From assembly GCA_001783525.1 (NCBI GenBank), contig MFMS01000002.1, positions 121,791 through 185,790 of the forward strand: a DNA stretch of 64,000 nucleotides. Reading direction: 5' to 3'. The notes beneath the pieces were generated by a model. That model saw only the letters and a program-made list of their open reading frames with translations. It did not search any database and had not been told where the DNA came from. Below, piece after piece: positions 90 to 64,000 of this stretch; position 1 is the stretch's first letter, and every line of letters starts with the position of its first letter. The position numbers and the translations under genes are program-made. This DNA comes from Candidatus Kaiserbacteria bacterium RIFOXYB1_FULL_46_14. Lineage in GTDB: Bacteria > Patescibacteriota > Minisyncoccia > Phycocordibacterales > UBA918.

Positions 90-737
90 TTAGAGGGCTT
101 TTTTAGAGGACAAAGTAGCTTCTACGATGAAGCGGTCTTCCTTGGCACCGAAGCTATTGCACGTCACAAGAGTTAGCTTATGCTCATCGCCGCCAGTTTT
201 GACGTTTACCTCACTTGCTTCTGCTTTATAAACGCGATCTACCTTGTAAATATACTCGGTGTCACCGCTCTTTACGCGAATGGTGTCTCCCCAGTTGAGA
301 TTTTGGATACCGTTGAAGGCCTGGAAGTTTTTATTGAAGACATTCTTGAGATAACTAGAGTGACCGAGGATAAGAATGTTACCCGTGCTAGTTAGATCGT
401 CGGAGTCTGGGTGACGAATGACTCCCTTCAGAAGAGCGTTGTCTAGCTCAGAAATAACATTCGAAGTAGGGTTTAAGACAACTACGGTGCGATCGAGGGC
501 GTCTATGGTAATAGAAACCGGCAATGGATCAGCGTTTTCCGATGGTATCGCTGGTTGCTCCTCGATAACTTCAGGTGAAGGTGAGGCAGTCTCAATCGGT
601 TTTACCGTATTCGTAACTGGTTCTGGAACAAAATCAACGAAGTAAAGAAAACTGTATCCCAAGGTCATTACGACAAAGAAAACGGCTAGAAAAGCGCCAG
701 AACGCGGCAATATTTCGTTGAGTAGCTTGGAAAACAT
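90..737 (-). CDS. Sortase family transpeptidase, membrane anchored
   Basis: N-terminal TM helix, Pro/Glu-rich linker, conserved His (ILGHS) and catalytic Cys in the TLVTCN motif (sortase TLxTC signature). Confidence 0.8.
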   Translation of the reverse strand: MFSKLLNEILPRSGAFLAVFFVVMTLGYSFLYFVDFVPEPVTNTVKPIETASPSPEVIEEQPAIPSENADPLPVSITIDALDRTVVVLNPTSNVISELDNALLKGVIRHPDSDDLTSTGNILILGHSSYLKNVFNKNFQAFNGIQNLNWGDTIRVKSGDTEYIYKVDRVYKAEASEVNVKTGGDEHKLTLVTCNSFGAKEDRFIVEATLSSKKAL

Positions 738-8550: not shown

Positions 8551-10110
8551 TCATTCCTTCGGACGCGTCTTTGGTGTTACCCAGAATCCCATATAACGAC
8601 CAAACATCAATCGTGTTTGCGCATCTAGTCCTGGCAAGGCGCTAAAGACGATCATTGTAAATGGCACCAGTAGCCACTGCACTGCCATCACGACATAAGC
8701 AAATCGTGAACTGTCGGTTGGTCGTTTCGGTGATAGTGAGAGTGAAATTATTGACGAGATGACAAGGCCAAACATCGCCAATATCAACAAGTTTCTGACT
8801 ACAATTGGCAAGTTATAGGATAGCACGGTCTCGTGAAAGACGCGGCCACCTAAAAATATCGGCGCCCAACCAAGTACAAACAACATTATCGGGTTGGTAA
8901 CCAGCGACCAGTAGCCTTCGGCTTGCTGAAGTATCACTTTGACACGCTTACCAAAGGAAATGTTTTTATTTTTTGTGAAGTGGTAGCCAATATAGACAAA
9001 ATTCTCCACACCGTAAGTCCAACGACGGTGTTGTTTGTAGATATTCTTTACGGTATCAAAAAGATTATCGCCCACGTTGGCATCCATCGAGACTGGATAC
9101 GAAAGCGGTATTACGTCGTACTCCCCGTTGTTGGCAATCATTAAGTTCCAGTAAATACGGGAGTCTTCACTCACCATGTTTCTCTGCCAGTAATTTACTT
9201 CATAGAGTGCCTTGAACGACGCTGAGTGTGAAGAAAATGTAGCCATTCGTTCTGGTCGCTCTTGTTGAACCATTTCCCAGAAGGTTGAGGACATAGCAAC
9301 GACACGCGAAAGTGCGCCAGCCTCCCAAAGATTGTTATTGAAAAGTGGTACCGGTTGGAAAGAGCTCTTGAGGGGACGCTCGGCTGTTAGGAAGTGCCAA
9401 ACGAGACAGTTGAAATAGTCTGGATACAGCACAGTATCGATATCGAAGTTTGATACGATTATATCTTCGTAAGGAATCTTCTTAGGATCGATAACTTTCT
9501 TGCGCACCTCCTCAATAGCATAAGAAACGTTGGAGCCTTTACCAGCCATTTCACCAGGCAGGTTAGCCGGATGAACAACGATTTCGAATCCGCCGAATTC
9601 TTTACTGAAGCGCTCACTCATCTTTGTAGCAATCTGTAAGGCAGATTCGCCGGCGCGCTCCTCCACTGCTAAAACGACTGTAAGCTTTTCTTTATTATAG
9701 TTAATTCGCGCAAGTGACTCTAGAGTCGCTTCAACTACCTCCTGTGGTTCTTTGTAGAATGGAAAGATTACGAGATGGTGTAGATGATCGTATTCAAACC
9801 GGTTTATTAACTCTTGCCAGTCGAGCGACATATGGTGACGCAGACGACGCCAGTTATGACGAAGGTGGTAAGACAAAAAGGCAGTCTTCAGTACCCAGAA
9901 AATCGAAAAGGCGATAATGAAATAGGCCGCCAAAAACGGTCGATAGATCGACAGAAGTACGACCCCGATCAAAGTCGTCCAAGATGCTAGACCCGGCAGT
10001 ATTTCTAATATACGATAAAGCAAGCGGCCGCCGCCTGAGAGTTCGGTGGCGCGACCGACATGAAAATCAGGTCGCCTAGCGTAGGGTAAAAGGTGAGCGT
10101 TATCCTCCAT
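8551..10110 (-). CDS. Family 2 glycosyltransferase, processive polysaccharide-synthase type (membrane-embedded)
   Basis: N- and C-terminal TM helices flanking a GT-A domain with D,D,D and the QHRRW (QxxRW) motif, as in cellulose/chitin/hyaluronan synthase-like enzymes. Confidence 0.75.
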   Translation of the reverse strand: MEDNAHLLPYARRPDFHVGRATELSGGGRLLYRILEILPGLASWTTLIGVVLLSIYRPFLAAYFIIAFSIFWVLKTAFLSYHLRHNWRRLRHHMSLDWQELINRFEYDHLHHLVIFPFYKEPQEVVEATLESLARINYNKEKLTVVLAVEERAGESALQIATKMSERFSKEFGGFEIVVHPANLPGEMAGKGSNVSYAIEEVRKKVIDPKKIPYEDIIVSNFDIDTVLYPDYFNCLVWHFLTAERPLKSSFQPVPLFNNNLWEAGALSRVVAMSSTFWEMVQQERPERMATFSSHSASFKALYEVNYWQRNMVSEDSRIYWNLMIANNGEYDVIPLSYPVSMDANVGDNLFDTVKNIYKQHRRWTYGVENFVYIGYHFTKNKNISFGKRVKVILQQAEGYWSLVTNPIMLFVLGWAPIFLGGRVFHETVLSYNLPIVVRNLLILAMFGLVISSIISLSLSPKRPTDSSRFAYVVMAVQWLLVPFTMIVFSALPGLDAQTRLMFGRYMGFWVTPKTRPKE

Positions 10111-10217: not shown

Positions 10218-10748
10218 TCAACAACCAGTAGCAAACGGGCCGTTTCCATAATAAATAGCGTTTATTCCGCTGCATTGACCATTACTGATAGCTACGCAAC
10301 GACCCATGGGTATCATGTGAGAAGGAAAATCCTTCATATTCTCAGGAGTACGGTAAATCAATATGCAGTACGAGGCACCAGAAGATGTGCTTTCACTACG
10401 GTAAAGATAGCCTGCGTCGCTTGTGCCACCTATAGGATCCTTCATTCCGGCAGGTAGATACGGAGCCAGGGCAGTCGCTAGGTTTGCCGCAGACGGATTA
10501 GTAATAGCATTATTAGAATAAGCGGGGGAATCAAATGATGTCCAGCCTGTGGCCATTATAGGATAGTGGCCGTTGTCCAAACTATACATTTCCAAGGCAT
10601 TTCTTATTTGGCCCATATCGGCCATACGTCTCGCGTCTCGAGATTTTACGCGTGCACTGTTTAAACTTGCCATCACCACAGAAGCGAGAATGCCAATAAT
10701 TGCGATGACGACCAATAGTTCAATGAGGGTGAAACCCTGCCGATACAT
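10218..10748 (-). CDS. Type IV pilin / pseudopilin (prepilin-type N-terminal cleavage and methylation domain)
   Basis: MYRQ-G/FTLIELLVVIAIIGILA with Glu+5; C-terminal Cys pair. The ATG at 10748 is preferred over the ORF-track start. Confidence 0.85.
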   Translation of the reverse strand: MYRQGFTLIELLVVIAIIGILASVVMASLNSARVKSRDARRMADMGQIRNALEMYSLDNGHYPIMATGWTSFDSPAYSNNAITNPSAANLATALAPYLPAGMKDPIGGTSDAGYLYRSESTSSGASYCILIYRTPENMKDFPSHMIPMGRCVAISNGQCSGINAIYYGNGPFATGC

Positions 10749-10866
10749 TTGTTTATTAGAACACAAATAAAAATGTGATATTGCGAATAAATGTGTATAA
10801 CCCTAAATAAAAAATGCAGTAGCCTAACACTAAACCATAACGTTTCTAATGATGTTCAAAAATATG

Positions 10867-10940
10867 AGCCGCCTCTCGGATTCGAACCGAGGACCTACGG
10901 TTTACAAAACCGTTGCTCTAACCATCTGAGCTAAGGCGGC
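10867..10940 (-). tRNA. tRNA-Thr (anticodon UGU)
   Basis: Reverse complement gives GCCGCCTTAGCTCAGATGGTTAGAGCAACGGTTT-TGT-AAACCGTAGGTCCTCGGTTCGAATCCGAGAGGCGGCT; cloverleaf with a 7-bp acceptor stem; no encoded CCA. Confidence 0.85.
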
Positions 10941-35999: not shown

Positions 36000-36221
36000 T
36001 TAAAGACGTTTGGTGATTCGACCCTTGCCGCCGTATTGATCGAGCACAATAGCGACTCGATCGCCGACTAGGACACGAATCCTAAACTTTCGCATCTTGC
36101 CAGCAAGAAAGGTCAAGATGGTTTGATTGCTGTCATCAAGTACGACCCGAAAGAGCGCATTTGGTAGCGCCTCCTCCACTGTTCCGTAGACGAGGTTTTC
36201 CTTTTGTGTTTCGGACATCAA
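36000..36221 (-). CDS. infA: Translation initiation factor IF-1
   Basis: S1-like OB fold, ...[16 protein letters not shown]... Confidence 0.95.
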
Positions 36222-36265
36222 ACGGGGGAAAGTTTAGCAGATACTTTATAATACGTCAATACTCT

Positions 36266-37573
36266 CTATTGACCGACCGACTCGATAATCGTGATATCGG
36301 CAGAATCATCCGGGAAACTGCGGGCCCAGAATGGTCTAATTGTAGCCGTTGCCTTCTCAATGGCTGGATAGCCGCCAAGAACGGTGTTAATGGCGGTTTT
36401 AGGCGCTCCAGCTAGATCCTTCTTTAGCTGTTCTGCGTCGTAAACCCAGATAAGACGTGGCTTTCCAGTTAGACGGAAGCTGATCGACTCCTTAGAGGCG
36501 AGGTCTGATTCTAACATAGCTTGATCAACATACTCAAAACTAAGTGCGCCAACGTTCTCAATCCGGACAGGCTCGTTTTCATAACCAGGGATTACACTCT
36601 TGGCAATGAAGGCAGCCAACAAGTCATCTTTGAATAGCGGTACCTTGAGCGAGACTTTTTCTTTTATCTTGACCTGACCCTCACCGACAGCTTCGCCTGG
36701 CAAAGTGGTGTAAGTGTAAGTGTAGCTTGACTGCAAGACACTAAAGCCGGCTGGCTTTTCTTTGTCCACTCTTTGTACTAGGGCTTCCTTAAGCTCGCCA
36801 CGCAAGCTTCCGAGTGCAGTTTGCATTTCGTTGTCGTCCACGATGTAACGAGGGCCGTCGAAGCCACCGGCGATCGCAGACGCGTTTTCTGCATAAATAG
36901 CATTATAGAGATCGGTTAGATCATTTTCGCGGAACCCTGGCACGGAGAAGCGGGTACCAGCTGACAGGTTGTACTTAGGACCAGCTTCTTCAGCGAAGAT
37001 CTTGGCTGTCACTGAACCAGGTACTGACTTCCCTTCGCTGTCTGTTGTCGCTCCCGGTACAACTGCAGATTCTGTGATACGGAAGACCGATCCGTCAGAC
37101 GATTCAAAACGAGTGTTTTTGATAAGGCGCTCTTGTCCGGAGGTTGTCTTATAGATGGTGATTTCACCAGTGGCCTGCTCCGTAACCTGTTCTTGGCCAG
37201 TAGCAGTAACTTGGCGTTCGCCCTCAGCTTCGAAGGTGATGATTTCGTAGGCCAATTCACCGCCGGTCGCTTGTCGTTTTGCTTCGAGTGAAGCGTTGAC
37301 GACCGGTTCACGCCAGCGTGGAAATACAGTGACCTTAGCCCCGCCAATAAAAGTGCTGATTACTACACCAATTGCAACTATCGCGAGGAATATGAATACA
37401 GCAACCCAGATGGGCTTCTTTCCTGATCCGCGGCTATTGCTACGCACACGCTCGACTACGGGTTCTTTGGGTAATACGCGTTCTGTCGTCTCATCCATCG
37501 GCATACTAGCGCGAGCCGGACGGCTCTGTCTCTTTGGCGGTTTTATATCTTGCAAATTCCACTTTTTATCCAT
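36266..37573 (-). CDS. Hypothetical bitopic membrane protein (basic cytoplasmic tail, one TM, ~360-aa extracytoplasmic domain)
   Basis: Lys/Arg/Pro-rich first ~55 aa, TM IWVAVFIFLAIVAIGVVISTFIG; no recognised domain. Confidence 0.5.
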   Translation of the reverse strand: MDKKWNLQDIKPPKRQSRPARASMPMDETTERVLPKEPVVERVRSNSRGSGKKPIWVAVFIFLAIVAIGVVISTFIGGAKVTVFPRWREPVVNASLEAKRQATGGELAYEIITFEAEGERQVTATGQEQVTEQATGEITIYKTTSGQERLIKNTRFESSDGSVFRITESAVVPGATTDSEGKSVPGSVTAKIFAEEAGPKYNLSAGTRFSVPGFRENDLTDLYNAIYAENASAIAGGFDGPRYIVDDNEMQTALGSLRGELKEALVQRVDKEKPAGFSVLQSSYTYTYTTLPGEAVGEGQVKIKEKVSLKVPLFKDDLLAAFIAKSVIPGYENEPVRIENVGALSFEYVDQAMLESDLASKESISFRLTGKPRLIWVYDAEQLKKDLAGAPKTAINTVLGGYPAIEKATATIRPFWARSFPDDSADITIIESVGQ

Positions 37574-37600
37574 ATGTCTTTAATTATAACACTAAAGGCG

Positions 37601-38707
37601 TTAACGTCCTTTTTTGTGAAAAAGGAGGGCAGCAACGAGAAGCGGCGTGTCAGCCGTAAGCTCCTGGCTCCAGAGCTTGGGAGTTATGGGGTGGATGGTT
37701 GGTCGTTCTTTCCACAAATCGAGAGTAAGAAGACGATCTCGCAAAAAACGTTGATCGTCATTTTCGGCGTGCATAAAAATAGTAGTCGGAAGTTCATCGA
37801 GGTCGTTTCCCTGAAGTAGTTTTGTTAAAACGGTCTCGTAATCATTAAAGACATCATCAAGGAGTGCGCTTTTGGGAGCGGTCAATGAGCTCATCCCATC
37901 GACATCGTTGTCTCGAAAGAGGTGTTCAGCTTCACTTTCAGGTAGATTAAGAGACTGGGCGAGTTTGGTGATTATGTCATCGGTTCCATGCGGCGTGTGC
38001 GAGATATTGCGAATCTCACCATCTGCAACCACGCATAGCTCAGTTGCAGAGCCGGTTAAGTCGATCAAGCAGATATGATCTGTTGAATGAGGTAGGTCAG
38101 AAATGACACTAAGATAATTGCCGATTCTTGGTTCTATACTGAGTTCTGTGCCTGGTAAGAAGCGATCGTGCGCCGAGACTATTTCGTTGTAGATTGATGC
38201 CGGTAAAACAGAAATCAGCTGGTATAAATTTTGTCCGATCGGTAGCAAAGGCCCTGCTTTGGCCGAAAGACCAAGCTTTCTCTCAAATGAATCTGGCAAA
38301 AGGGCAGCACTTACCTGAGGAGAACGCTCTGCTTGATCCATTATGTCGGTGGTGATATCGACTGGAATTGTGCCCGAGAACTTAAGTCCACGCGCTACTG
38401 TCTCTGAGAGCGGCGCTGAAACAATTATTTTAAAAACCTCAGGATGAAGTTCAGGGAAATTCTGGAGGAGAAAGCGCATCCCATCCATTTCCATCGTTTT
38501 AATTGAAGTCCTAACTGCGCCTTGCAAACGTACCTCATTGCCACGTTCTAGGTGCCCGCGGGGAAAAGCCTCAAAATGAGACCAGATGACCTCTGGATAA
38601 GGTGCACCGACTTCCGATTTAACTAAAGCAAGGTGAATACCATCAAAGCTAATATCAGCCAACGCCATGGCGCGCACCACCGGCTTCCTCTTGGTCAAGG
38701 AAAACAT
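37601..38707 (-). CDS. Actin-fold ATPase of the PilM/FtsA family (putative)
   Basis: ICLIDLTGSATELCVVADGEI...HGTDDIITKLAQSLNLPESEAEHLFRD parallels the PilM/FtsA VIDIGAGTTDIAVF...G..DI...L.....AE..K; N-terminal ALADISFDGIHLALV phosphate-1-like strand. Confidence 0.45.
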   Translation of the reverse strand: MFSLTKRKPVVRAMALADISFDGIHLALVKSEVGAPYPEVIWSHFEAFPRGHLERGNEVRLQGAVRTSIKTMEMDGMRFLLQNFPELHPEVFKIIVSAPLSETVARGLKFSGTIPVDITTDIMDQAERSPQVSAALLPDSFERKLGLSAKAGPLLPIGQNLYQLISVLPASIYNEIVSAHDRFLPGTELSIEPRIGNYLSVISDLPHSTDHICLIDLTGSATELCVVADGEIRNISHTPHGTDDIITKLAQSLNLPESEAEHLFRDNDVDGMSSLTAPKSALLDDVFNDYETVLTKLLQGNDLDELPTTIFMHAENDDQRFLRDRLLTLDLWKERPTIHPITPKLWSQELTADTPLLVAALLFHKKGR

Positions 38708-38752
38708 ACATAAAATTTTAAATGTAAACCGTGAATTGTTAAAAGGATAACT

Positions 38753-38781
38753 AAAGAGCGCCGGCGAAGCCGGCGCTCTTT
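38753..38781. terminator. Intrinsic terminator after alaS
   Basis: AAAGAGCGCCGGC-GAAG-CCGGCGCTCTTT. Confidence 0.75.
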
Positions 38782-38800
38782 ATCCTATAAATACCTTCCA

Positions 38801-40678
38801 TTACTCCAAAATAGCTTTGACTCGACGCACTCCCGCAGACGAGGACTCCTCTTTAACGATCTTGAAAGTGCCGGTGATGTCTTCAAGCTTTTCTACATGG
38901 GGGCCGCCGCAGAGTTCGCGTGAGAATACCTCCCCATTACGGCCAGTCATTGTGTATACCTTCACCTCATCTGGATAGCGATCCCAGAAACTACCTTCGA
39001 TAGTTGGGTCGGACTCTGCAGTAGTTTTTTGAAGCATTTCGATAGTCACATCCCCGCCGGTCTTGATGGCAGAGTTTACAAACTCCTCGACTTTGTCGAG
39101 AGTGTCGCGCTCTACCCTGTCTCCATAAGTGAAGTCGAAGCGCAAACGCTCGCCCGTGATGTTTGAGCCGGCTTGGTGGATATCCTTTCCTAAGTATTTA
39201 CGGAGACCAGCCAACATCAAGTGCGTAGCGGTATGATACTGCACCACTTTCTCGGAATGATCGGCTAGACCACCCTTAAACTTCTGTTCAGCACCGGAGC
39301 GTGAAAGTTCTTGGTGTTCAGTCATCTTGGCAGCAAAAGAATCACGATCGATAGAGAGTCCGCGACCTTTTACAATTTCTTCCGTAAGTTCAAAAGGGAA
39401 ACCGTAAGTTGTAAAAAGGACAAAGGCGTCCTCACCGCTTATACTGTCTTTAGCAGAGAGTTTCTCCAGCTCTTTCAAGCCTTTTTCTAGCGTACGACGA
39501 AACTGTTCCTCCTCCCGTGCGATCGTGTCTATAATGTTGTCCTTTTTGTCGGACAAATTACGGTAGTGAGTCTCATAGGTGTGGATAACGCTTTCGGCTA
39601 AGTTTTTGAGCTCACCGGCCGGTACACCTAATTGGTCGGCATAGCGTACAGCGCGACGCAAGAGACGACGTACGAAGTAGCCTTGTTGATCGTTGGCTGG
39701 AAAGACTCCGTCACCGATCATAAACACCGCCCCTCTAATGTGGTCAGTGATGACACGAAAGGCTACTAGATCGTCATCGTATTTTTTTCCAGAAAGACTT
39801 TCGATTTGCTCAACCACTTTCCAAAGCAAATCAACTTTGAATACGTCAGGGTCGCTGTTCTCGGCGGCGGCGATACGCTCCAGACCACCACCAAAATCTA
39901 CGTTGCTTTGTGGAAGCTTAGCAAACGAACCGTCTTCTTTCTTGATGTATTCAATAAAGACCGAGTTTCCTATCTCTAGAAATTGTCCGGAGTCGGAGTT
40001 TGGGTGTGGTTGTTTGTCTTTGAAATCTGGATGAGTGGCGTGTTCAGGGCCAAAGTCATAAAAAACCTCGCTATCTGGCCCGCCGATCTCGCCTATCGGC
40101 ATTACCTCTGGCTTGCCGGAGCGGCTCCACCAGTTCTTGGCGGCATCGTAATAGAAGATACGTCCGCCCTGCATTCCTACATCGTAACCATCCTCCTCAG
40201 AACCAATATGAACAGCCTTGGCCTCAACACCTCTTTCAGCAAAAAGATCTTGCCAGATAGCGACTGATTCATCATCGCGGGGTATGCCAAGTGCTTCATC
40301 TCCGGCAAAGACGGTTACATAAATACGGCTTGGGTCGAGTTTTGCTTCATCAACAAGAAAGGTAAAGAACCAACGCAGTTGATCTTTCTTAAAGTAGTCT
40401 CCGAGTGACCAGTTGCCGAGCATCTCGAAGAAGGTGGTGTGGCGATTGTCGCCTACTTCCTCGATGTCGTTAGCGCGAAAACACTTCTGCGAGTCGGTAA
40501 GACGAGTGCCTTTTGGATGCTTCTCACCCATCAGGTATGGGATGAGTGGCTGCATGCCGCTTCCGGTAAAAAGTGTGGTCGGATCGTTCTCGGGTACGAG
40601 AGCTGATGAAGGAATGACCGCGTGGCCATTTTGCTCCATAAACTTTAAATATTTTTCACGTATTTCGTTGCCAGACAT
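38801..40678 (-). CDS. alaS: Alanine--tRNA ligase (short form, 625 aa; lacks the C-Ala domain)
   Basis: FTGSGMQPLIPYL...QKCFRANDIEEVGDNRHTTFFEMLGNWSLGDYFK catalytic core; editing-domain HTATHLM motif. Confidence 0.9.
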   Translation of the reverse strand: MSGNEIREKYLKFMEQNGHAVIPSSALVPENDPTTLFTGSGMQPLIPYLMGEKHPKGTRLTDSQKCFRANDIEEVGDNRHTTFFEMLGNWSLGDYFKKDQLRWFFTFLVDEAKLDPSRIYVTVFAGDEALGIPRDDESVAIWQDLFAERGVEAKAVHIGSEEDGYDVGMQGGRIFYYDAAKNWWSRSGKPEVMPIGEIGGPDSEVFYDFGPEHATHPDFKDKQPHPNSDSGQFLEIGNSVFIEYIKKEDGSFAKLPQSNVDFGGGLERIAAAENSDPDVFKVDLLWKVVEQIESLSGKKYDDDLVAFRVITDHIRGAVFMIGDGVFPANDQQGYFVRRLLRRAVRYADQLGVPAGELKNLAESVIHTYETHYRNLSDKKDNIIDTIAREEEQFRRTLEKGLKELEKLSAKDSISGEDAFVLFTTYGFPFELTEEIVKGRGLSIDRDSFAAKMTEHQELSRSGAEQKFKGGLADHSEKVVQYHTATHLMLAGLRKYLGKDIHQAGSNITGERLRFDFTYGDRVERDTLDKVEEFVNSAIKTGGDVTIEMLQKTTAESDPTIEGSFWDRYPDEVKVYTMTGRNGEVFSRELCGGPHVEKLEDITGTFKIVKEESSSAGVRRVKAILE

Positions 40679-47269: not shown

Positions 47270-48253
47270 TTATTTGAGGTACTTTGCAATATTTGCCCTA
47301 TGTTCGTCAAATGTCTTGGCGTAGTGAAAATTTCCCTCCTCGTCGGTTATATAATACAGATATTCAGTATCTTCCGGTTCGAGCACAGCATCAATTGAAT
47401 TAAGGCCTGGATTACCAATCGGTGTCGGTGTTAGTCCGGCATACTTATACGTATTGTACGGAGTGTCTCGTTCTAAATCTTCAGCTCTAAGATCGCTGAG
47501 GGGACGACCTAAAGCATATTCAATTGATGCATCTGTCTGGAGGCGCATCCCTAGCTGTAAGCGTTTTTGTAAGATGCCAGAAACGATTCGCATTGATTCC
47601 TCTGTGTTGGCTTCACGTTCAAGTAGTGAAGCTAGCACTATAACGCCGTCTTCCTTAAGCGGATGTGAGGCCATGGGCTCTTTTCTTGAAGCCACTTTCT
47701 GCTCATAAGTAGTTTTGAGCAATGTTAGCAATTCTGCAGCGGTAAAATCCTCCGGAATGTAGTAAGTGTCAGGAAAAAGATAGCCCTCCATACCTGCCGC
47801 TGAATTCAAAAATTCCGTGCCGTCAAATTGTGACAGGCCTTCTGCGGCCAACAAAGCAAACTCTTTTGTTGTGTAGCCCTCAGGCAAGGTCAGTCGTACC
47901 AGGGTGTCTCCATCGGCGTCTCTGGTGATTCGGTCGATTACAGAGAAGGCAGTTAACGGCGTGTCGAAATAATAGCTACCGGCCTTAACGTTATTTGGAT
48001 CATGCCAAGTTATCAAAATAATGTGTGCTAACAATGAAGACCGTACTGCCTTTGCCTCCTCGAGCTTCTCTACAATAGCCGCCGCTGAAAGTCCACGCGT
48101 AATTGTGATGGTTGTATTAATTGGAAAGTCCGCCGGTGGTCTGGTCTGCCACCAAAATAGCACCAGCAACAAAGAAGCTGTCGCAATAATAAACCCGATG
48201 ACCCACAACCACAAAAAGCGTGACGTCCGACCGACTATATCCATATCTATCAT
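47270..48253 (-). CDS. mltG: Endolytic murein transglycosylase MltG (YceG family)
   Basis: N-terminal TM, YceG-like domain (...YYITDEEGNFHYAKTFDEHRANIAKY). Confidence 0.85.
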   Translation of the reverse strand: MIDMDIVGRTSRFLWLWVIGFIIATASLLLVLFWWQTRPPADFPINTTITITRGLSAAAIVEKLEEAKAVRSSLLAHIILITWHDPNNVKAGSYYFDTPLTAFSVIDRITRDADGDTLVRLTLPEGYTTKEFALLAAEGLSQFDGTEFLNSAAGMEGYLFPDTYYIPEDFTAAELLTLLKTTYEQKVASRKEPMASHPLKEDGVIVLASLLEREANTEESMRIVSGILQKRLQLGMRLQTDASIEYALGRPLSDLRAEDLERDTPYNTYKYAGLTPTPIGNPGLNSIDAVLEPEDTEYLYYITDEEGNFHYAKTFDEHRANIAKYLK

Positions 48254-56628: not shown

Positions 56629-56631
56629 ATT

Positions 56632-56657
56632 TGTTAAGTTACTTAACTAAGTTACTT
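56632..56657. promoter_or_regulatory. Two adjacent palindromic half-site pairs (TTAAGTTACTTAA and TAAGTTACTTA): candidate MarR operator
   Basis: Located in the marR promoter region between divergent genes; overlaps the putative -35/-10 of marR. Confidence 0.45.
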
Positions 56658-56666
56658 ATTGATATT

Positions 56667-57092
56667 ATGGATCGCACAAAATGCATAGCGGAAATCGTCG
56701 AATCTCTCCGCCAAGGGAAACGCGCCACCTGTACCAAAATGGCCAAAGTGCCCGGTATCGCTGTCACTCCAGCACAATGGGCCTTACTCAACCTCTTATA
56801 TGGTAGCAAAGGAATAAGCGTCAAGGAGTTGAGTACCACAATGCACGTAACCGGTAGCGCCATCACACAGTTGGCAAACGAGCTTGAGGAGAAGGGATAC
56901 CTACGACGCGAGAGCGACCAAAAAGACAAGCGCTCAATCAGATTAAACTTAACAGCAAAAAGCAGTCGAATGATGTTGAGCATCCAAAAATCCTTTGCCG
57001 AAGAGTGCGCCACGATGTTTTCCAAATTATCTGACGCGGAGCTAAAAACACTGAGTGAGCTACACAAGAAAATAGCCGGGATTCAAATTTAA
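56667..57092 (+). CDS. MarR-family transcriptional regulator
   Basis: Winged-helix LSTTMHVTGSAITQLANELEEKGYLRRESDQKDKRSIRLNLT. Confidence 0.85.
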   Translation: MDRTKCIAEIVESLRQGKRATCTKMAKVPGIAVTPAQWALLNLLYGSKGISVKELSTTMHVTGSAITQLANELEEKGYLRRESDQKDKRSIRLNLTAKSSRMMLSIQKSFAEECATMFSKLSDAELKTLSELHKKIAGIQI

Positions 57093-57112: not shown

Positions 57113-58432
57113 ATGAACAAAATAAAAAATCTGATTAAGAAATATCCCTACTATTCGGCTGGTGCTATTGCCGCATTACTAGCGATAGTCGGTTTTGTTG
57201 TTGTTTTTAATAGTAAGGATGCCGAGGAAGTCGCAAAAGAAGCCACTCGCCAAGTAGCAACCATGAGTGTGACCGAGGGCGCTGAAGGCGCACTAGGTGT
57301 TGCCTACCCGACCGCCAGCGGTAACTCCTTTGTGGTTCGTGCCGAGGCAAGTGGTCGTGTAGAGCGAGCAGTCAAGGTTGGTACCAAAGTAACAGCTGGC
57401 ACCATCATCGCTGAACTAGACAATTCTTCTGAGCGTGCGGCTTTGACCCAAGCACAGGGCTACTATGAAGCGGCACAGGCCGGAGCGGCTCAAAGCGATG
57501 TTAGTGTGGACGATGCTAAGACCGCACTCGCCGCTGCCAAGCAGAATGCTGTATCTGCCAGCCGTGTAGCCATGACCGCTTGGAATAACGTTCTTTTCAA
57601 TACGGTTGACGAACTTTTTTCTAGTCCGCGCATCAGCCCAGGCGTGCGTATCAGTGCAAGCAGTCAAGCCACCGAGCTTAGTCGCAACCGCCTTGAATTC
57701 AATACTGTCCTTTCAGACTGGCAGAAGGATTTAGCCTCTCTTTCTAACACAAGCGACATCGGCACAATCAACGCGGCCCTTGACCGTGCCACTGCCGACG
57801 TGGATGCTCTCACTCGTATGGTTGACTCCTTTATATCGTTGCTGCCAAAACACCAGCCAGATACAGTCTTTACCACTAGTGAATTGACCAGACTGTCAGC
57901 TGAATTTGCCACTGCCCGCACCACACTCGACACACAGCACTCTGCTCTCTCTGGCGCCAAGAGCGCACTCGCTAGAGCTGACGAAGCAGTAAACAGCGCC
58001 TCCATTGGTGGTACTGGCGGCGCCGTGTCGTCTGCTAATGCGGCAATTAAACAAGCACTTGGTTCGTATCAGGCCGCTAAGGCAAACTATGACCGAACCA
58101 TTGTAAGAGCACCGTTTGCTGGCACCATCACTTCACAAAACGTAACCGTCGGTGACATTCTAAATGTCGGTGCCGATGTAGCTATTATCGTTCCGGAAGA
58201 AGGTGTTGAGACAAAGCGTTGGTGGACGCTTCCACTTTCTGCAGTTAAGTACATGCCAGACAATGCTTTTGTCTTTATTGTAAACAACGACAATGTAATC
58301 GAAGAGATCAAAGTTGAAACCGGACTAGTAACAGCCAGCAACATCAAAGTGACTGGTCTTAACGGTAGTGAAAATGTCATCAAGGATGTCCGCGGACTAA
58401 AGGCAGGCGAGCGAGTAGAAGTAGCAAATTAA
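57113..58432 (+). CDS. Efflux RND periplasmic adaptor (membrane fusion protein, HlyD family)
   Basis: N-terminal TM, long coiled-coil hairpin, lipoyl-like and beta-barrel segments (RTIVRAPFAGTITSQNVTVGD). Confidence 0.8.
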   Translation: MNKIKNLIKKYPYYSAGAIAALLAIVGFVVVFNSKDAEEVAKEATRQVATMSVTEGAEGALGVAYPTASGNSFVVRAEASGRVERAVKVGTKVTAGTIIAELDNSSERAALTQAQGYYEAAQAGAAQSDVSVDDAKTALAAAKQNAVSASRVAMTAWNNVLFNTVDELFSSPRISPGVRISASSQATELSRNRLEFNTVLSDWQKDLASLSNTSDIGTINAALDRATADVDALTRMVDSFISLLPKHQPDTVFTTSELTRLSAEFATARTTLDTQHSALSGAKSALARADEAVNSASIGGTGGAVSSANAAIKQALGSYQAAKANYDRTIVRAPFAGTITSQNVTVGDILNVGADVAIIVPEEGVETKRWWTLPLSAVKYMPDNAFVFIVNNDNVIEEIKVETGLVTASNIKVTGLNGSENVIKDVRGLKAGERVEVAN

Positions 58433-58450
58433 ACTTAACTTTTTACCTTT

Positions 58451-61400
58451 ATGTTTCCTCTTTGGAACTTCTTCCTCACTCGCCAAGCATTTACGATCCT
58501 TACCATCTTCACCTTGCTGGCCGCGGGCACTTACGCCATTTTTTCTATTCCTAAGGAATCCACGCCAGAAATTGTGATTCCAATGGGAATCATTACCACC
58601 GTCTTGCCTGGCGCTACTGCCGCAGATGTGGAAAGACTTGTAACCGACAAACTCGAGCCAGCAGTGCGCAACGTCGCCAACATCGACGATGTTACCTCCA
58701 CCTCACAACAAGGTGTTTCTGTTATCACCGCGCAGTTCCTATCTTCGACTGACGTTGACGTGGCCCTCAACGACCTCCGTACCGCCATCGATGGTGTGAA
58801 GGCTGAACTACCAACCGATGCCGAAGAACCGACGGTGGCAAAAGTTGATTTTCAGAACCAACCAGTCTTGATGGTTGGTGTTTCAACTGACCTTTCTCCG
58901 ACCACTCTCGCCAAACTTGGCGAGGATCTCCAAGATGATCTGACTAACGTAACCGGAGTATCGCGAGTTGAGGTTTCTGGCGTGCGTGATCGACAACTAA
59001 CTATCGTTGTTCATAAGGATGCACTAGCGCGACATAACTTGCGTGCCGATCAAGTGATTGCTGCACTCCGTATGGCTAACGCGTCCATACCGGCTGGCGC
59101 ACTGACGATCGATGGTGTTGACTACCCCGTTCAGTTTGAAGGAGATATAACCGAGGCCGGTGCTATTGCAAACACTCCGATTACTACACCGTCAGGTACC
59201 GTTAGAGTGTCTGATGTCGCCACTGTTATTGATGGTTTTGAAAAATCATCCACTATTTCTCGTTTGTCACAAGGTGGGGAAGATGCGACCTACGCACTAA
59301 CTCTTAATATCTACAAGACATCCGGAGGAAATATTTTAACCGCTACCGACAACACCCTAGAGCGAATCGAGGAGCTCAAAGATAGCCTACTCAAAGGCTC
59401 TGATGTGGTTGTTATATATGACGCTGGCGAAGAAGTTCGTGACTCAATCAACGAACTGACTCGCACTGGCTTTGAAACAGTTATGCTTATTATGCTCGTT
59501 CTCTTGATCGCGATCGGTCTTCGTGAAGCACTCATTGCTGCACTTTCTGTACCACTATCTTTCGTGATCGCCTTTATGGGCATGATGGCAACCGGAAACT
59601 CGATCAACTTCATTTCCCTCTTTGCGTTGATTATCGCAATTGGTATTTTGGTGGACTCCGCCATTGTAGTAGTCGAAGCGATCCACACAAACCGAGAACG
59701 TGGCCTTGCTAAGCTCGAAGCTGCCCGCAAAGCCATTAAAGACTTTGGCTGGCCGTTGATTGCTGGCACCATGACCACGGTTGCGGTGTTCGTGCCGCTC
59801 TTCTTCCTAACCGGCATCATTGGTCAGTTTATTAAGTCCATTCCATTCACTATCATTGTCGTGCTAATGGCGTCGATTGTGGTAGCTCTTGGTTTTGTTC
59901 CTCTCATTACTCTCTGGGTTATCAAGCACGAAGAAAGTCCGTTTGTTATTTATCGAGAAAAACTTTGGACAAAAATCTCTACCAACTACCGAGCGTGGAT
60001 GGATAAGTTATTCTCAAGTATCCGCCTACAACGTTTGTTCTTTGGATTCTTGGCCGTTACTTTTGTTATAGCTTTGGCGCTACCGATCTCTGGTCTTCTG
60101 AAGACCGTAATGTTTCCTCCAGATAACGCTGACCTCGCTTACCTTGAGATAGAAATGCCACAAGCTACAACACTTACCGCTACCGACGCCGTGGCCAAAC
60201 TAGTTGAAAAGGAAGTGGCCAAAACTCCACACCTTAATTCGTATATGACGACAGTAGGTAGTGGTTCTCTATTCAACTCCAGTGGCGCTAGTGCTGGTAG
60301 TAAGTTTGCCAACATTACCTTAAACCTCGACCCTGACCGCCCAAAAAGCGCAAACAGTGAAGTGATTGTGAGTGATCTTCGAGTTCGTCTCGCCGGTCTT
60401 ACTCTAAACAACGCAAAGGTGACAGTATCGTCAGCAGAGGGTGGGCCACCTTCTGGCGCTCCGATTGTCGCCAAAGTATGGGGTGAGGATGCTGCGGCCC
60501 TTTCACGTGCTACCGAGCAACTAGAAAACCTCGTCAAGAATACCGCCGGCACTCGCGATATTTCTTCCTCACTTTCAAATGACGGAACGGAGTTACGTAT
60601 CGCTGTCGATCGGAGCAAAGCAGAAGAATATGGTTTATCAGCCGCTGACGTGGCCTCCACTTTGCGCACAGCGATTGACGGAGTTGATGCCACTACTATC
60701 CGCATCGAAGGTGAGGATGTGGACGTGCACGTTGTAATGGACTTAAACGCTGACTTCGTAAACCCAGAAGACACCTCCATCGCTACCGCAGACGCAATCG
60801 CAACTGTGCCAGTCGCTACACCACGCGGAACTATCCCGCTTGGTTCCCTGCTTACTATCACCGCAGGGCGTACTTCGGCATCTATCAATCACGAAGACGG
60901 TACCCGAGTGAGCCAAGTTAGTGCTTATGTGGTAGATGGTGCTAACGCGGTTGAATTAACCGATGCGATCCGTGTTGAAGCCGAAAAGTTGGAGCTGCCG
61001 TCTGGTATTCATCTTAGTTTTGGTGGTGAAGATGAGGAAATCCGCCAGACCTTCACTGAGATGTTATTGGCTTTGATTGCTGGCCTCGTCTTGATGTTCG
61101 CAGTGTTGGTACTTGAATTTAACTCTTTCCGTACCTCACTCCGCCTACTCTCCGCGATTCCACTTTCGTTGACCGGCGTTCTAATAGGTCTATTCATCGC
61201 AGGACAACCGTTATCATTCACTGCCTTTCTGGGAATCATCGCGCTTGGTGGCGTTGTGATTAACCACGGTATTCTACTCCTCGACGTACTAAACCACTTA
61301 CGCGGGTCGAATGTCGATGGCAACCCGAAGGATATCGTACTTACTGCCGCCGAGAGTCGCCTTCGCCCGATCCTTCTTACCACCATCACAACTGTGATCG

Positions 61401-61546
61401 GTATGGTGCCACTTACTCTTGTGTCTGCGATGTGGGCGCCACTGGCTTTCACAATTGCCTTTGGTCTCATTTACGGCACAATCTTGACGCTGGTATTCAT
61501 TCCACTTCTTTCTTACCGTAGATTGGTAAAGGAGATGGCAAGATAA
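58451..61546 (+). CDS. RND-family efflux permease (AcrB/AcrD/AcrF-like, 1031 aa)
   Basis: 12-TM topology with two large loops; ACR_tran signature segments. Confidence 0.9.
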   Translation: MFPLWNFFLTRQAFTILTIFTLLAAGTYAIFSIPKESTPEIVIPMGIITTVLPGATAADVERLVTDKLEPAVRNVANIDDVTSTSQQGVSVITAQFLSSTDVDVALNDLRTAIDGVKAELPTDAEEPTVAKVDFQNQPVLMVGVSTDLSPTTLAKLGEDLQDDLTNVTGVSRVEVSGVRDRQLTIVVHKDALARHNLRADQVIAALRMANASIPAGALTIDGVDYPVQFEGDITEAGAIANTPITTPSGTVRVSDVATVIDGFEKSSTISRLSQGGEDATYALTLNIYKTSGGNILTATDNTLERIEELKDSLLKGSDVVVIYDAGEEVRDSINELTRTGFETVMLIMLVLLIAIGLREALIAALSVPLSFVIAFMGMMATGNSINFISLFALIIAIGILVDSAIVVVEAIHTNRERGLAKLEAARKAIKDFGWPLIAGTMTTVAVFVPLFFLTGIIGQFIKSIPFTIIVVLMASIVVALGFVPLITLWVIKHEESPFVIYREKLWTKISTNYRAWMDKLFSSIRLQRLFFGFLAVTFVIALALPISGLLKTVMFPPDNADLAYLEIEMPQATTLTATDAVAKLVEKEVAKTPHLNSYMTTVGSGSLFNSSGASAGSKFANITLNLDPDRPKSANSEVIVSDLRVRLAGLTLNNAKVTVSSAEGGPPSGAPIVAKVWGEDAAALSRATEQLENLVKNTAGTRDISSSLSNDGTELRIAVDRSKAEEYGLSAADVASTLRTAIDGVDATTIRIEGEDVDVHVVMDLNADFVNPEDTSIATADAIATVPVATPRGTIPLGSLLTITAGRTSASINHEDGTRVSQVSAYVVDGANAVELTDAIRVEAEKLELPSGIHLSFGGEDEEIRQTFTEMLLALIAGLVLMFAVLVLEFNSFRTSLRLLSAIPLSLTGVLIGLFIAGQPLSFTAFLGIIALGGVVINHGILLLDVLNHLRGSNVDGNPKDIVLTAAESRLRPILLTTITTVIGMVPLTLVSAMWAPLAFTIAFGLIYGTILTLVFIPLLSYRRLVKEMAR

Positions 61547-62768: not shown

Positions 62769-64000
<1,232 letters not shown>

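What the first reader, a model, noticed from the sequence alone, without database searches (positions are those of the whole stretch)
36266..38707. PilM/FtsA-like actin-fold protein plus bitopic partner occupying the secY-adk-map position upstream of infA
In most bacteria the infA-rpmJ-rpsM-rpsK-rpsD-rpoA-rplQ block is preceded by secY-adk-map. Here infA is instead preceded by a 435-aa protein with a basic cytoplasmic tail, one TM and a large external domain, and by a 368-aa protein with the PilM/FtsA phosphate-2 and adenosine-motif pattern. That pairing is the hallmark of PilM with PilN-type partners, or of FtsA with membrane partners. It could be a pilus/competence inner-membrane platform, since a type IV prepilin gene lies at 10.2 kb, or a divisome element. 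The placement inside the translation-gene cluster is unusual.
Basis: partly seen in the sequence, partly recalled or inferred. Interest (0 to 1): 0.5.

Follow-up and report, generated by a model that had tools for sequence, protein, structure and literature searches.

The report
Actin-like protein with membrane-anchored baseplate-like partner
In one large group of ultra-small (Patescibacteria) bacteria, two unannotated genes always sit together just before infA: one encodes a cytoplasmic protein related to FtsA and PilM, the other a membrane-anchored protein whose outer part is built like a phage-tail baseplate wedge, a pairing I found described nowhere and whose function is unknown.

Summary
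Both ORFs are real: P1 (37601-38707, minus strand, 368 aa) and P2 (36266-37573, minus strand, 435 aa).

**P2.** It has an invariant N-terminal peptide (M[DE]KKWNLQDI[KR]P), a variable basic linker and one TM helix. Its roughly 360-residue ectodomain aligns end to end with minimal phage, tailocin and Mu baseplate wedge (Baseplate_J) proteins. It is not PilN-like.

**Conservation.** In 80 of 80 species-level Paceibacteria-type genomes the order is P1-like, P2-like, infA, usually after alaS. There are no pilus or division genes nearby, and no viral relatives were found.

**Best reading.** This is a third branch of the FtsA/PilM type of module. P1 is probably tethered to the membrane by P2's N-terminal peptide, serving a constitutive envelope or division-type process rather than the type IV pilus. 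The docking step and the function are inferred, not shown.

Its actin-fold and co-conservation claims hold. The pilus link has no support.

The parts
37601..38707 (-). P1: 368-aa cytoplasmic actin-fold protein of the FtsA/PilM clade. It belongs to a distinct family with 326 representatives at 50% identity.
38636..38656 (-). P1 phosphate-1 loop, residues 18-24. The window protein has D-I-S-F-D-G-I; the family consensus is D-I-G-S-G-S-V.
   Evidence: Column counts in the 83-sequence alignment A3: D 71/83, G 67, S 80, G 58, S 70. The window's subclade has lost the G-S-G-S.
38201..38407 (-). P1 1C/SHS2-type insert, residues about 101-169, with strand-helices-strand-strand topology. It sits at the position where FtsA and PilM carry subdomain 1C.
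   Evidence: DSSP of the AF2 model: E102-108, H120-145, E147-157, E160-169. About 297-301 residues align to FtsA/PilM, against 263 or fewer for other actin folds. The assignment is by topology; it was not checked on superposed coordinates.
38039..38071 (-). P1 phosphate-2 region, residues 213-223 (C-L-I-D-L-T-G-S-A-T-E). The family consensus is C-L-x-D-V-T-x-E-A-T-E with an invariant Glu223, replacing the usual D-x-G-G-G-T-T-D.
   Evidence: This is the only stretch matched by Pfam FtsA PF14450 and by TIGR01174/TIGR01175. Column counts.
37538..37573 (-). P2 N-terminal cytoplasmic dodecapeptide MDKKWNLQDIKP, an invariant short linear motif and the proposed docking peptide for P1.
   Evidence: K4, W5, L7, Q8, D9, I10 and P12 are identical in 70 of 70 homologues down to about 46% overall identity. 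The following linker (residues 13-52) has a mean top-residue frequency of only 0.34. The motif is unique in the six-frame translation of the window. AF2 pLDDT is about 60, so it is unstructured on its own.
37346..37414 (-). P2 single transmembrane helix, residues about 54-76.
   Evidence: Highest Kyte-Doolittle windows start at residues 54-59. AF2 helix 54-75. The N-in topology is inferred from the long basic N-terminal tail and the absence of a signal peptide.
36269..37345 (-). P2 extracytoplasmic domain, residues 77-435: the full-length fold of a minimal baseplate wedge (Baseplate_J / gp6 / gp47) protein. The beta-barrel core at residues 133-212 corresponds to 36938-37177.
38752..38782 (-). 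Terminator-like hairpin after alaS (14-bp stem, 9 G-C pairs, T-rich tail). It separates alaS from the P1 transcription unit.
38715..38742 (-). Promoter-like site TTAACA-16-TAAAAT. Its -10 box ends 7 nt before the P1 ATG and there is no Shine-Dalgarno sequence, so the P1 mRNA may be leaderless.
   Evidence: Best site in the scan, 10 of 12 matches. A strong -10 box lies 4-12 nt before the start codon of the P1-like gene in 70 of 78 species loci, against 2 of 79 for rpsM and 10 of 61 for alaS.
37583..37588 (-). TATAAT box, preceded by TGT, 9 nt before the P2 ATG: a candidate second, leaderless-type promoter.
   Evidence: Sequence read. The same feature is present in 56 of 80 species loci.
36000..36221 (-). 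infA, the invariant downstream neighbour (context, not part of the module).
   Evidence: infA lies downstream of the P2-like gene in 80 of 80 loci. Promoter-like TTGACG-17-TAAACT at 36259-36231.

Best explanation
P1 and P2 form a two-protein, membrane-spanning module built on the same principle as FtsA-FtsN and PilM-PilN, but they belong to neither family. P1 is a soluble FtsA/PilM-class actin-fold protein with the 1C/SHS2 subdomain and no membrane anchor of its own. I propose that it is recruited to the membrane by binding the invariant N-terminal peptide of P2 (M[DE]KKWNLQDI[KR]P plus a basic stretch), most likely in the cleft between subdomains 1A and 1C. P2 crosses the membrane once and displays outside the cell a complete baseplate-wedge (Baseplate_J) fold. 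No conserved catalytic-type residues are apparent, so its likely role is as a scaffold, possibly oligomeric. The pair is present and fixed next to infA, among housekeeping genes, in every locus recovered from this clade, it has promoter-like -10 boxes of its own, and it never sits next to pilus genes. I therefore think it serves a constitutive envelope, cell-division or surface-assembly process rather than the type IV pilus. Shown: the folds, the motifs, the topology features, the strict co-conservation and the promoter-like elements. Inferred: the P1-P2 contact, any oligomerisation, and the biological process.
For: The actin fold of P1 is closest to FtsA and PilM. P1 has 1C/SHS2 topology and no C-terminal amphipathic helix. 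P2's N-terminal peptide is invariant and is followed by a variable linker and one TM helix. P2's ectodomain aligns along its whole length with baseplate wedge proteins. Invariant positions in P2 are mostly Gly, Pro and hydrophobic residues. A P1-like gene lies directly upstream of the P2-like gene in 80 of 80 species loci, with gaps of a few nucleotides or overlaps, and infA follows in 80 of 80. Relatives whose P1 is only about 22% identical keep the same order. Precedent exists: the N-terminal tails of the bitopic proteins FtsN and PilN both bind the IA-IC cleft of FtsA and PilM (PMC7613929). There are no pilB/C/D/N/O or ftsZ genes in about 82 kb around the locus. CPR bacteria are reported to have canonical pilM/N/O clustered with pilB/C (PMC6744442).
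Against: P1 evolves very fast (median 23% identity across the 80 loci) while the P2 peptide is invariant. The window's subclade has also changed two residues of P1's conserved S-A-P-W-S-Y-T motif, a motif I place at the 1A/1C junction from the model's secondary structure only. So the peptide might bind a different, more conserved partner. The nucleotide-binding motifs are non-canonical, so P1 may not behave like FtsA or PilM biochemically. The 'housekeeping' argument rests only on gene neighbourhood. I could not determine whether these genomes also carry a canonical ftsA or pilM.
Confidence: 0.5

Rival explanations
1. The pair is a divergent type IV pilus or competence inner-membrane platform: P1 acts as PilM, and P2 functionally replaces PilN/PilO in a monoderm CPR cell.
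Against: P2 has no PilN or PilO fold or Pfam match. No pilB/C/D/O gene is adjacent in any of the 80 loci, or in about 82 kb here. CPR bacteria are reported to have recognisable PilM/N/O co-localised with PilB/C. Sequence models favour FtsA (43 of 83) over Pfam PilM_2 (2 of 83). The prepilin gene is 26 kb away.
Confidence: 0.17
2. P1 is this lineage's true FtsA (its only one). It has lost the C-terminal amphipathic helix and now uses P2 as its membrane anchor and as an FtsN/FtsQ-like link to wall synthesis.
For: The best sequence and structure matches are to FtsA. P2's tail carries a basic R/K cluster after the motif, which recalls FtsN's basic cytoplasmic tail (from memory). The pair is found in every recovered locus of the clade, in a housekeeping context. 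In this scaffold ddl is not followed by ftsQ-ftsA-ftsZ.
Against: P1 scores 21 bits against the 175.85-bit equivalog cut-off. It is not near ftsZ. The phosphate-2 and adenosine motifs are non-canonical. ftsA transcripts were reported among a set of ultra-small groundwater organisms; the passage I read also names a Paceibacteria lineage in connection with cell-division gene expression, but I did not see a lineage breakdown (PMC9938205). I could not check the rest of the genome.
Confidence: 0.2
3. The two proteins are neighbours without a direct interaction. P2's invariant peptide binds another, highly conserved cytoplasmic factor, and P1 acts separately.
For: There is a mismatch between an invariant peptide and a fast-evolving P1. 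Each gene has its own -10 box close to its start codon.
Against: Adjacency holds in 80 of 80 loci, with minimal or overlapping spacing, across lineages in which P1 has diverged to about 22% identity. The architecture matches two known actin-fold/bitopic-partner pairs.
Confidence: 0.1
4. P2 is a remnant of a prophage, tailocin or contractile injection system.
For: Baseplate_J, PHROG_6 and structural matches to baseplate wedge proteins.
Against: No sheath, tube, gp25 or gp7-like genes are nearby. The chromosomal position is fixed in at least 80 species. The protein has an N-terminal TM anchor. No relative was found in 2.9 million viral contigs. The family is under clear conservation (mean column identity 57%).
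Confidence: 0.02

Closest known systems
FtsA with FtsN (bacterial divisome)
   Same: An actin fold with a 1C subdomain in place of 1B. The partner is a bitopic protein whose short, basic N-terminal cytoplasmic tail binds the IA-IC cleft (PMC7613929). FtsA gives the best structural and profile matches to P1.
   Different: P1 has no C-terminal amphipathic membrane helix. It is not in a dcw/ftsZ neighbourhood. It has D-V-T-x-E-A-T-E and I-F-L-H-x-D in place of the G-rich phosphate-2 and adenosine loops. It scores far below the FtsA equivalog threshold. The partner's outer domain is a baseplate-wedge fold, not a SPOR domain.
PilM with PilN/PilO (type IVa pilus alignment complex; PDB 2YCH, 5EOU, 3JC8)
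   Different: The partner has neither the PilN fold nor a PilN Pfam match, there is no PilO, and there are no neighbouring pilus genes. The peptide sequence differs (KKWNLQDIKP against INLLP). The TIGR01175 threshold is not reached.
Baseplate_J / wedge proteins of contractile tails (T4 gp6 class; Mu gp47, diffocin TRI-2, cyanophage A-1(L) gp31)
   Same: P2's whole ectodomain (about 360 residues) aligns along the full length of the minimal 346-386-residue wedge proteins. The barrel domain is detectable by sequence.
   Different: P2 is a chromosomal gene found in every recovered locus of this clade. It has an N-terminal cytoplasmic motif and a TM anchor, and no other tail genes accompany it. TM-scores are low (about 0.2), so the domain arrangement differs, or the multi-domain model is not rigidly comparable.
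GlxA of Streptomyces (membrane-anchored radical copper oxidase; PDB 4UNM)
   Different: Only about 140-180 residues align. P2 has no Pfam match to any catalytic (oxidase) domain.

Membership tests
FtsA (TIGR01174 / Pfam FtsA PF14450 + SHS2_FTSA) | Actin-like fold with subdomain 1C (SHS2) inserted in domain 1 | tested here: met
FtsA (TIGR01174 / Pfam FtsA PF14450 + SHS2_FTSA) | Score above the curated family thresholds | tested here: not met
   TIGR01174 21.3 bits against 175.85; PF14450 21.8 against 31.8. In the family, 43-46 of 83 members give only sub-threshold hits.
FtsA (TIGR01174 / Pfam FtsA PF14450 + SHS2_FTSA) | C-terminal amphipathic membrane-targeting helix after a flexible linker | tested here: not met
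   The protein ends at the last core helix (H354-366, pLDDT 86-90). Family tails are 0-14 polar residues.
FtsA (TIGR01174 / Pfam FtsA PF14450 + SHS2_FTSA) | Gene next to ftsZ/ftsQ in the dcw cluster | tested here: not met
   Always followed by the P2-like gene and infA (80 of 80 loci), and preceded by alaS in 73 of 80.
FtsA (TIGR01174 / Pfam FtsA PF14450 + SHS2_FTSA) | Binding of the FtsZ C-terminal peptide, and ATP-dependent polymerisation | not testable with these tools
   The phosphate-2 and adenosine motifs are non-canonical.
PilM (TIGR01175 / PF11104) | Score above the curated thresholds | tested here: not met
   TIGR01175 15.4 bits against 133. PF11104 hit in 2 of 83 members.
PilM (TIGR01175 / PF11104) | Encoded with pilN and pilO (and pilB/pilC nearby) | tested here: not met
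   The downstream gene has a Baseplate_J-like fold. No pil genes occur in any of the 80 loci or in about 82 kb around this one.
PilM (TIGR01175 / PF11104) | Binds the conserved N-terminal peptide of its bitopic partner | tested here: inconclusive
   The partner does carry an invariant N-terminal peptide, but the sequence differs from INLLP, and no complex prediction could be run.
PilN (PF05137) | Bitopic protein with a conserved N-terminal motif plus a coiled-coil and ferredoxin-like outer domain | tested here: not met
   The topology and the N-terminal motif are analogous. The outer domain is a baseplate-wedge fold, there is no PF05137 hit, and neither PilN nor PilO appears among the top structural matches.
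Baseplate_J (PF04865; gp6/gpJ/gp47 wedge proteins) | Homologous fold over the wedge-protein core | tested here: met
Baseplate_J (PF04865; gp6/gpJ/gp47 wedge proteins) | Pfam gathering threshold | tested here: not met
   The window protein scores 18.4 bits against 21.1. 28 of 70 relatives hit at E below 0.01, best 8.6e-8.
Baseplate_J (PF04865; gp6/gpJ/gp47 wedge proteins) | Part of a contractile tail, tailocin, T6SS or other contractile injection system gene cluster | tested here: not met
   Only housekeeping neighbours. No viral relatives.

The most novel reading that the evidence does not exclude
A phage-type baseplate wedge protein has been taken over by the cell. It is anchored in the membrane and coupled through an invariant cytoplasmic peptide to an FtsA/PilM-like actin-fold protein. 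Together they would form a previously unrecognised trans-membrane machine, possibly a ring outside the membrane organised by a filament or ring inside. It would be found throughout this Kaiserbacteria/Nomurabacteria-type clade and would act in division or in building the cell surface or host-contact structure of these episymbionts.
Probability: 0.25. Interest if true: 0.8.

Novelty: new variant of a known kind. Interest (0 to 1): 0.55.

Why it matters
Patescibacteria make up a large share of bacterial diversity, and how these cells divide and build their surface is poorly understood. This pair was found in every locus recovered from a large Paceibacteria-type clade. Its fixed position among housekeeping genes suggests, but does not show, constitutive expression. 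NCBI annotates it only as 'hypothetical protein'. It would add a third branch to the FtsA/PilM way of coupling a cytoplasmic actin-fold protein to a bitopic membrane partner. It would also be a case of a baseplate-wedge fold working as a cellular membrane protein. The hypothesis is directly testable, by complex prediction, peptide pull-down, and localisation in cultivated Paceibacteria. It may point to the missing division or surface-assembly components of these organisms.

Tried and rejected
1. A word-indexed homologue search found only 9-10 relatives of P1. The exhaustive profile search was needed to find the family.
2. The search for related loci with the P1 alignment failed because no stretch was conserved enough. 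The P2 alignment was used instead.
3. The afdb50 fold library was not available, so structural relatives outside the PDB, and their taxonomy, were not surveyed.
4. Literature searches for a baseplate-J protein or an FtsA-like protein in CPR, Paceibacteria or Parcubacteria found no description of this pair.
5. Walking the matching 167-kb scaffold about 10 kb beyond each end of the window found no ftsA, ftsZ or pil cluster. ddl is followed by unannotated small genes, not ftsQAZ. That is too little of the genome to conclude anything.
6. A prophage or tailocin remnant was rejected: fixed locus, no tail genes, no viral relatives.
8. An FtsQ/DivIB analogy was rejected because the gene order is reversed and nothing annotated as FtsQ or DivIB appears among the listed structural matches.
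9. A second copy of the P2 N-terminal motif was searched for in the window. None was found.
Full report
**Observation**

P1 is at 37601-38707 (368 aa) and P2 at 36266-37573 (435 aa), 27 nt apart. Upstream lies a 625-aa alanyl-tRNA synthetase (38801-40678). Downstream come infA (36000-36221), rpmJ, rpsM, rpsK, rpsD, rpoA, rplQ, rplM and rpsI, then grpE-dnaK-dnaJ.

The window matches a JGI metagenome contig (3300025117, Ga0208958_1000246). It also matches a 167-kb scaffold from another assembly. The closest species-level genome is a Candidatus Kaiserbacteria MAG, with 82% identity for P2, so the organism is a Paceibacteria/Parcubacteria-type member of the Patescibacteria (CPR). secY, adk and map are not in the window, nor in the roughly 82 kb of the scaffold that I could see.

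**P1**

Single-sequence searches give only sub-threshold hits, confined to residues 212-267. These are Pfam FtsA (E 2.5e-4, 21.8 bits against a cut-off of 31.8), TIGR01174 ftsA (21.3 bits against 175.85) and TIGR01175 pilM (15.4 bits against 133).

An exhaustive profile search of 1.8 billion representative proteins found a distinct family of 326 representatives, mostly 390-400 aa. A profile of 83 members matches solved FtsA structures best (1e4f, E 3.2e-5), then PilM (3jc8, E 9.3e-4) and EutJ. Among family members, 43 of 83 touch Pfam FtsA and 2 of 83 touch PilM_2. With NCBIfam, 46 of 83 touch ftsA and 37 of 83 touch pilM. None of the best hits comes near a curated cut-off.

Residues 102-169 have strand-helix-strand-strand topology at the place where FtsA and PilM carry subdomain 1C.

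Three features separate P1 from both families:
- There is no C-terminal amphipathic helix. The chain ends with the last core helix.
- The phosphate-2 loop is D-V-T-x-E-A-T-E, with an invariant Glu, instead of D-x-G-G-G-T-T-D.
- The adenosine loop is I-F-L-H-x-D, without glycines.

The family keeps an FtsA/PilM-like phosphate-1 loop (D-I-G-S-G-S-V). The window's own subclade has changed it to D-I-S-F-D-G.

**P2**

More than 800 homologues were found, and those that carry a source name are called 'hypothetical protein'. The first twelve residues, M-[DE]-K-K-W-N-L-Q-D-I-[KR]-P, are essentially invariant in 70 sequences that are otherwise only 46-59% identical. An R/K-rich stretch follows, then a poorly conserved linker with low pLDDT, and one hydrophobic helix at residues 54-76. 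The motif occurs nowhere else in the window.

At sequence level, the barrel (residues 133-212) matches PHROG_6 'baseplate wedge subunit' (E 7e-6), Pfam Baseplate_J in 28 of 70 members and the GlxA barrel in 20 of 70. TM-scores are low (about 0.2), so the domains are arranged differently or the elongated model is not rigidly comparable. There is no PilN, PilO or FtsQ signal. Invariant positions are mostly Gly, Pro and hydrophobic residues, which points to a scaffold rather than an enzyme.

**Co-conservation and context**

A scan of species-representative genomes with the P2 profile returned at least 385 genomes. I examined the 80 best loci:
- All 80 have a P1-family gene immediately upstream, typically 4-20 nt from or overlapping the P2 reading frame.
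- All 80 have infA immediately downstream.
- 79 have rpsM, and 73 have alaS upstream.

Relatives whose P1 is only about 22% identical keep the same order. P1 is the fastest-evolving gene of the neighbourhood. Median identity to the window protein is 23% for P1, 44% for P2, 68% for AlaRS, 71% for IF1 and 78% for S13. No relative was found in 2.9 million viral contigs.

In the window, alaS is followed by a strong terminator-like hairpin (38782-38752) and then by the best promoter-like site of the region (TTAACA-16-TAAAAT). Its -10 box ends 7 nt before the P1 ATG, and there is no Shine-Dalgarno sequence. A strong -10 box lies 4-12 nt before the start codon in 70 of 78 P1-like genes and 56 of 80 P2-like genes. 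The figures are 10 of 61 for alaS and 2 of 79 for rpsM. So the pair appears to have its own promoters, probably of the leaderless type.

**Interpretation**

The architecture has three elements: a soluble FtsA/PilM-class protein with no anchor of its own, a bitopic partner encoded next to it, and an invariant peptide at the partner's extreme cytoplasmic N-terminus. This is the arrangement of PilM-PilN and FtsA-FtsN, in both of which the partner's tail binds the IA-IC cleft (PMC7613929).

I therefore think P1 is docked to the membrane by P2's N-terminal peptide, and that the complex couples a cytoplasmic actin-fold protein to an extracellular wedge-like scaffold. The contact itself is inferred. 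I could not run a complex prediction. The invariance of the peptide against the rapid drift of P1, including changes in the window's subclade to P1's conserved S-A-P-W-S-Y-T motif, is a real caveat. I place that motif at the 1A/1C junction from secondary structure alone.

On the biological process, several points argue against the pilus reading:
- The locus is fixed in a housekeeping neighbourhood.
- The pair was present in every locus recovered.
- Pilus genes are absent nearby.
- CPR bacteria are reported to carry canonical pilM/N/O clustered with pilB/C (PMC6744442).

These points favour a constitutive envelope or division-type role. Whether P1 is the lineage's only FtsA or a third paralogue could not be decided, because the rest of the genome was out of reach.

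**Comparison with known systems and novelty**

P1 meets the fold criterion of FtsA and PilM. It fails the threshold, anchor, motif and neighbourhood criteria of both. P2 meets the fold criterion of Baseplate_J wedge proteins but fails their context criterion, and it adds a membrane anchor and a cytoplasmic motif. I found no description of this pair in the searchable literature.

I rate it a new variant of a known kind: the FtsA/PilM-plus-bitopic-partner module, with an unprecedented partner. Interest is moderate to fairly high. The result is unexpected and directly testable, but the function remains open.

Noticed in passing
window 38715-38720 (before P1), 37583-37588 (before P2), 36231-36259 (before infA); loci L011-L090: Strong -10 boxes (TATAAT/TATACT, often TGn-extended) lie 4-12 nt upstream of the start codons of the P1-like gene (70 of 78), the P2-like gene (56 of 80) and infA (45 of 80, all at 10-12 nt). 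For these three genes Shine-Dalgarno-like motifs are almost absent. The controls are alaS 10 of 61 and rpsM 2 of 79, and rpsM has a Shine-Dalgarno-like motif in 35 of 79. This suggests conserved leaderless or near-leaderless transcripts in this clade.
   Followed up: partly
window 38801-40678 (-): The alanyl-tRNA synthetase is only 625 aa, with the tRNA-synt_2c and tRNA_SAD domains but no C-terminal (C-Ala/DHHA1) domain hit. Relatives are 605-647 aa.
   Followed up: no
window 57113-61546 (+) and 56631-57092: There is an RND-type transporter (ACR_tran, 1031 aa) with a membrane-fusion/adaptor-like protein (439 aa, weak BSH_RND hit) and a MarR regulator. Tripartite-pump components are unexpected in a presumed single-membrane CPR cell.
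   Followed up: no
window 10218-10766 (-), 10866-10940 (-), 8551-10110 (-), 90-737 (-): A type IV prepilin-like gene (N_methyl, E 2.4e-9, with a weak T2SSG hit) sits next to tRNA-Thr(TGT) and a GT2 glycosyltransferase. A sortase lies at the window start. No pilB/C/D gene accompanies them.
   Followed up: partly
P1, residues 18-23 and 100-102 (window 38639-38656 and 38402-38410): The window's P1 subclade (368-371 aa, 47-96% identical to the window protein) has lost the family's G-S-G-S phosphate-1 loop and the W and Y of the conserved A-P-W-S-Y-T motif. It is about 30 residues shorter than the main family, so it looks like a fast-evolving, possibly nucleotide-independent offshoot.
   Followed up: partly
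loci L046 and L062: Two genome records titled 'Candidatus Azotimanducaceae bacterium' and 'Patiriisocius sp.' carry the typical Paceibacteria alaS-P1-P2-infA locus, so these contigs are probably mis-binned. Many records labelled 'uncultured Candidatus Saccharibacteria' carry the same locus, so those labels may be generic.
   Followed up: no
locus L096 293-2220 (scaffold about 8 kb beyond window position 64000): D-Ala-D-Ala ligase (ddl) is followed by two small unannotated genes (195 and 82 aa) and then the ATP synthase operon, not by ftsQ-ftsA-ftsZ as in classical dcw clusters.
   Followed up: partly
window 47270-48253 (-) compared with loci L007 and L010: The YceG/MltG-like gene is intact in the window and the JGI contig (327 aa). 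In the otherwise identical ANAN16-1 scaffold it is split into 148-aa and 173-aa pieces, either a frameshift or an assembly difference.
   Followed up: no
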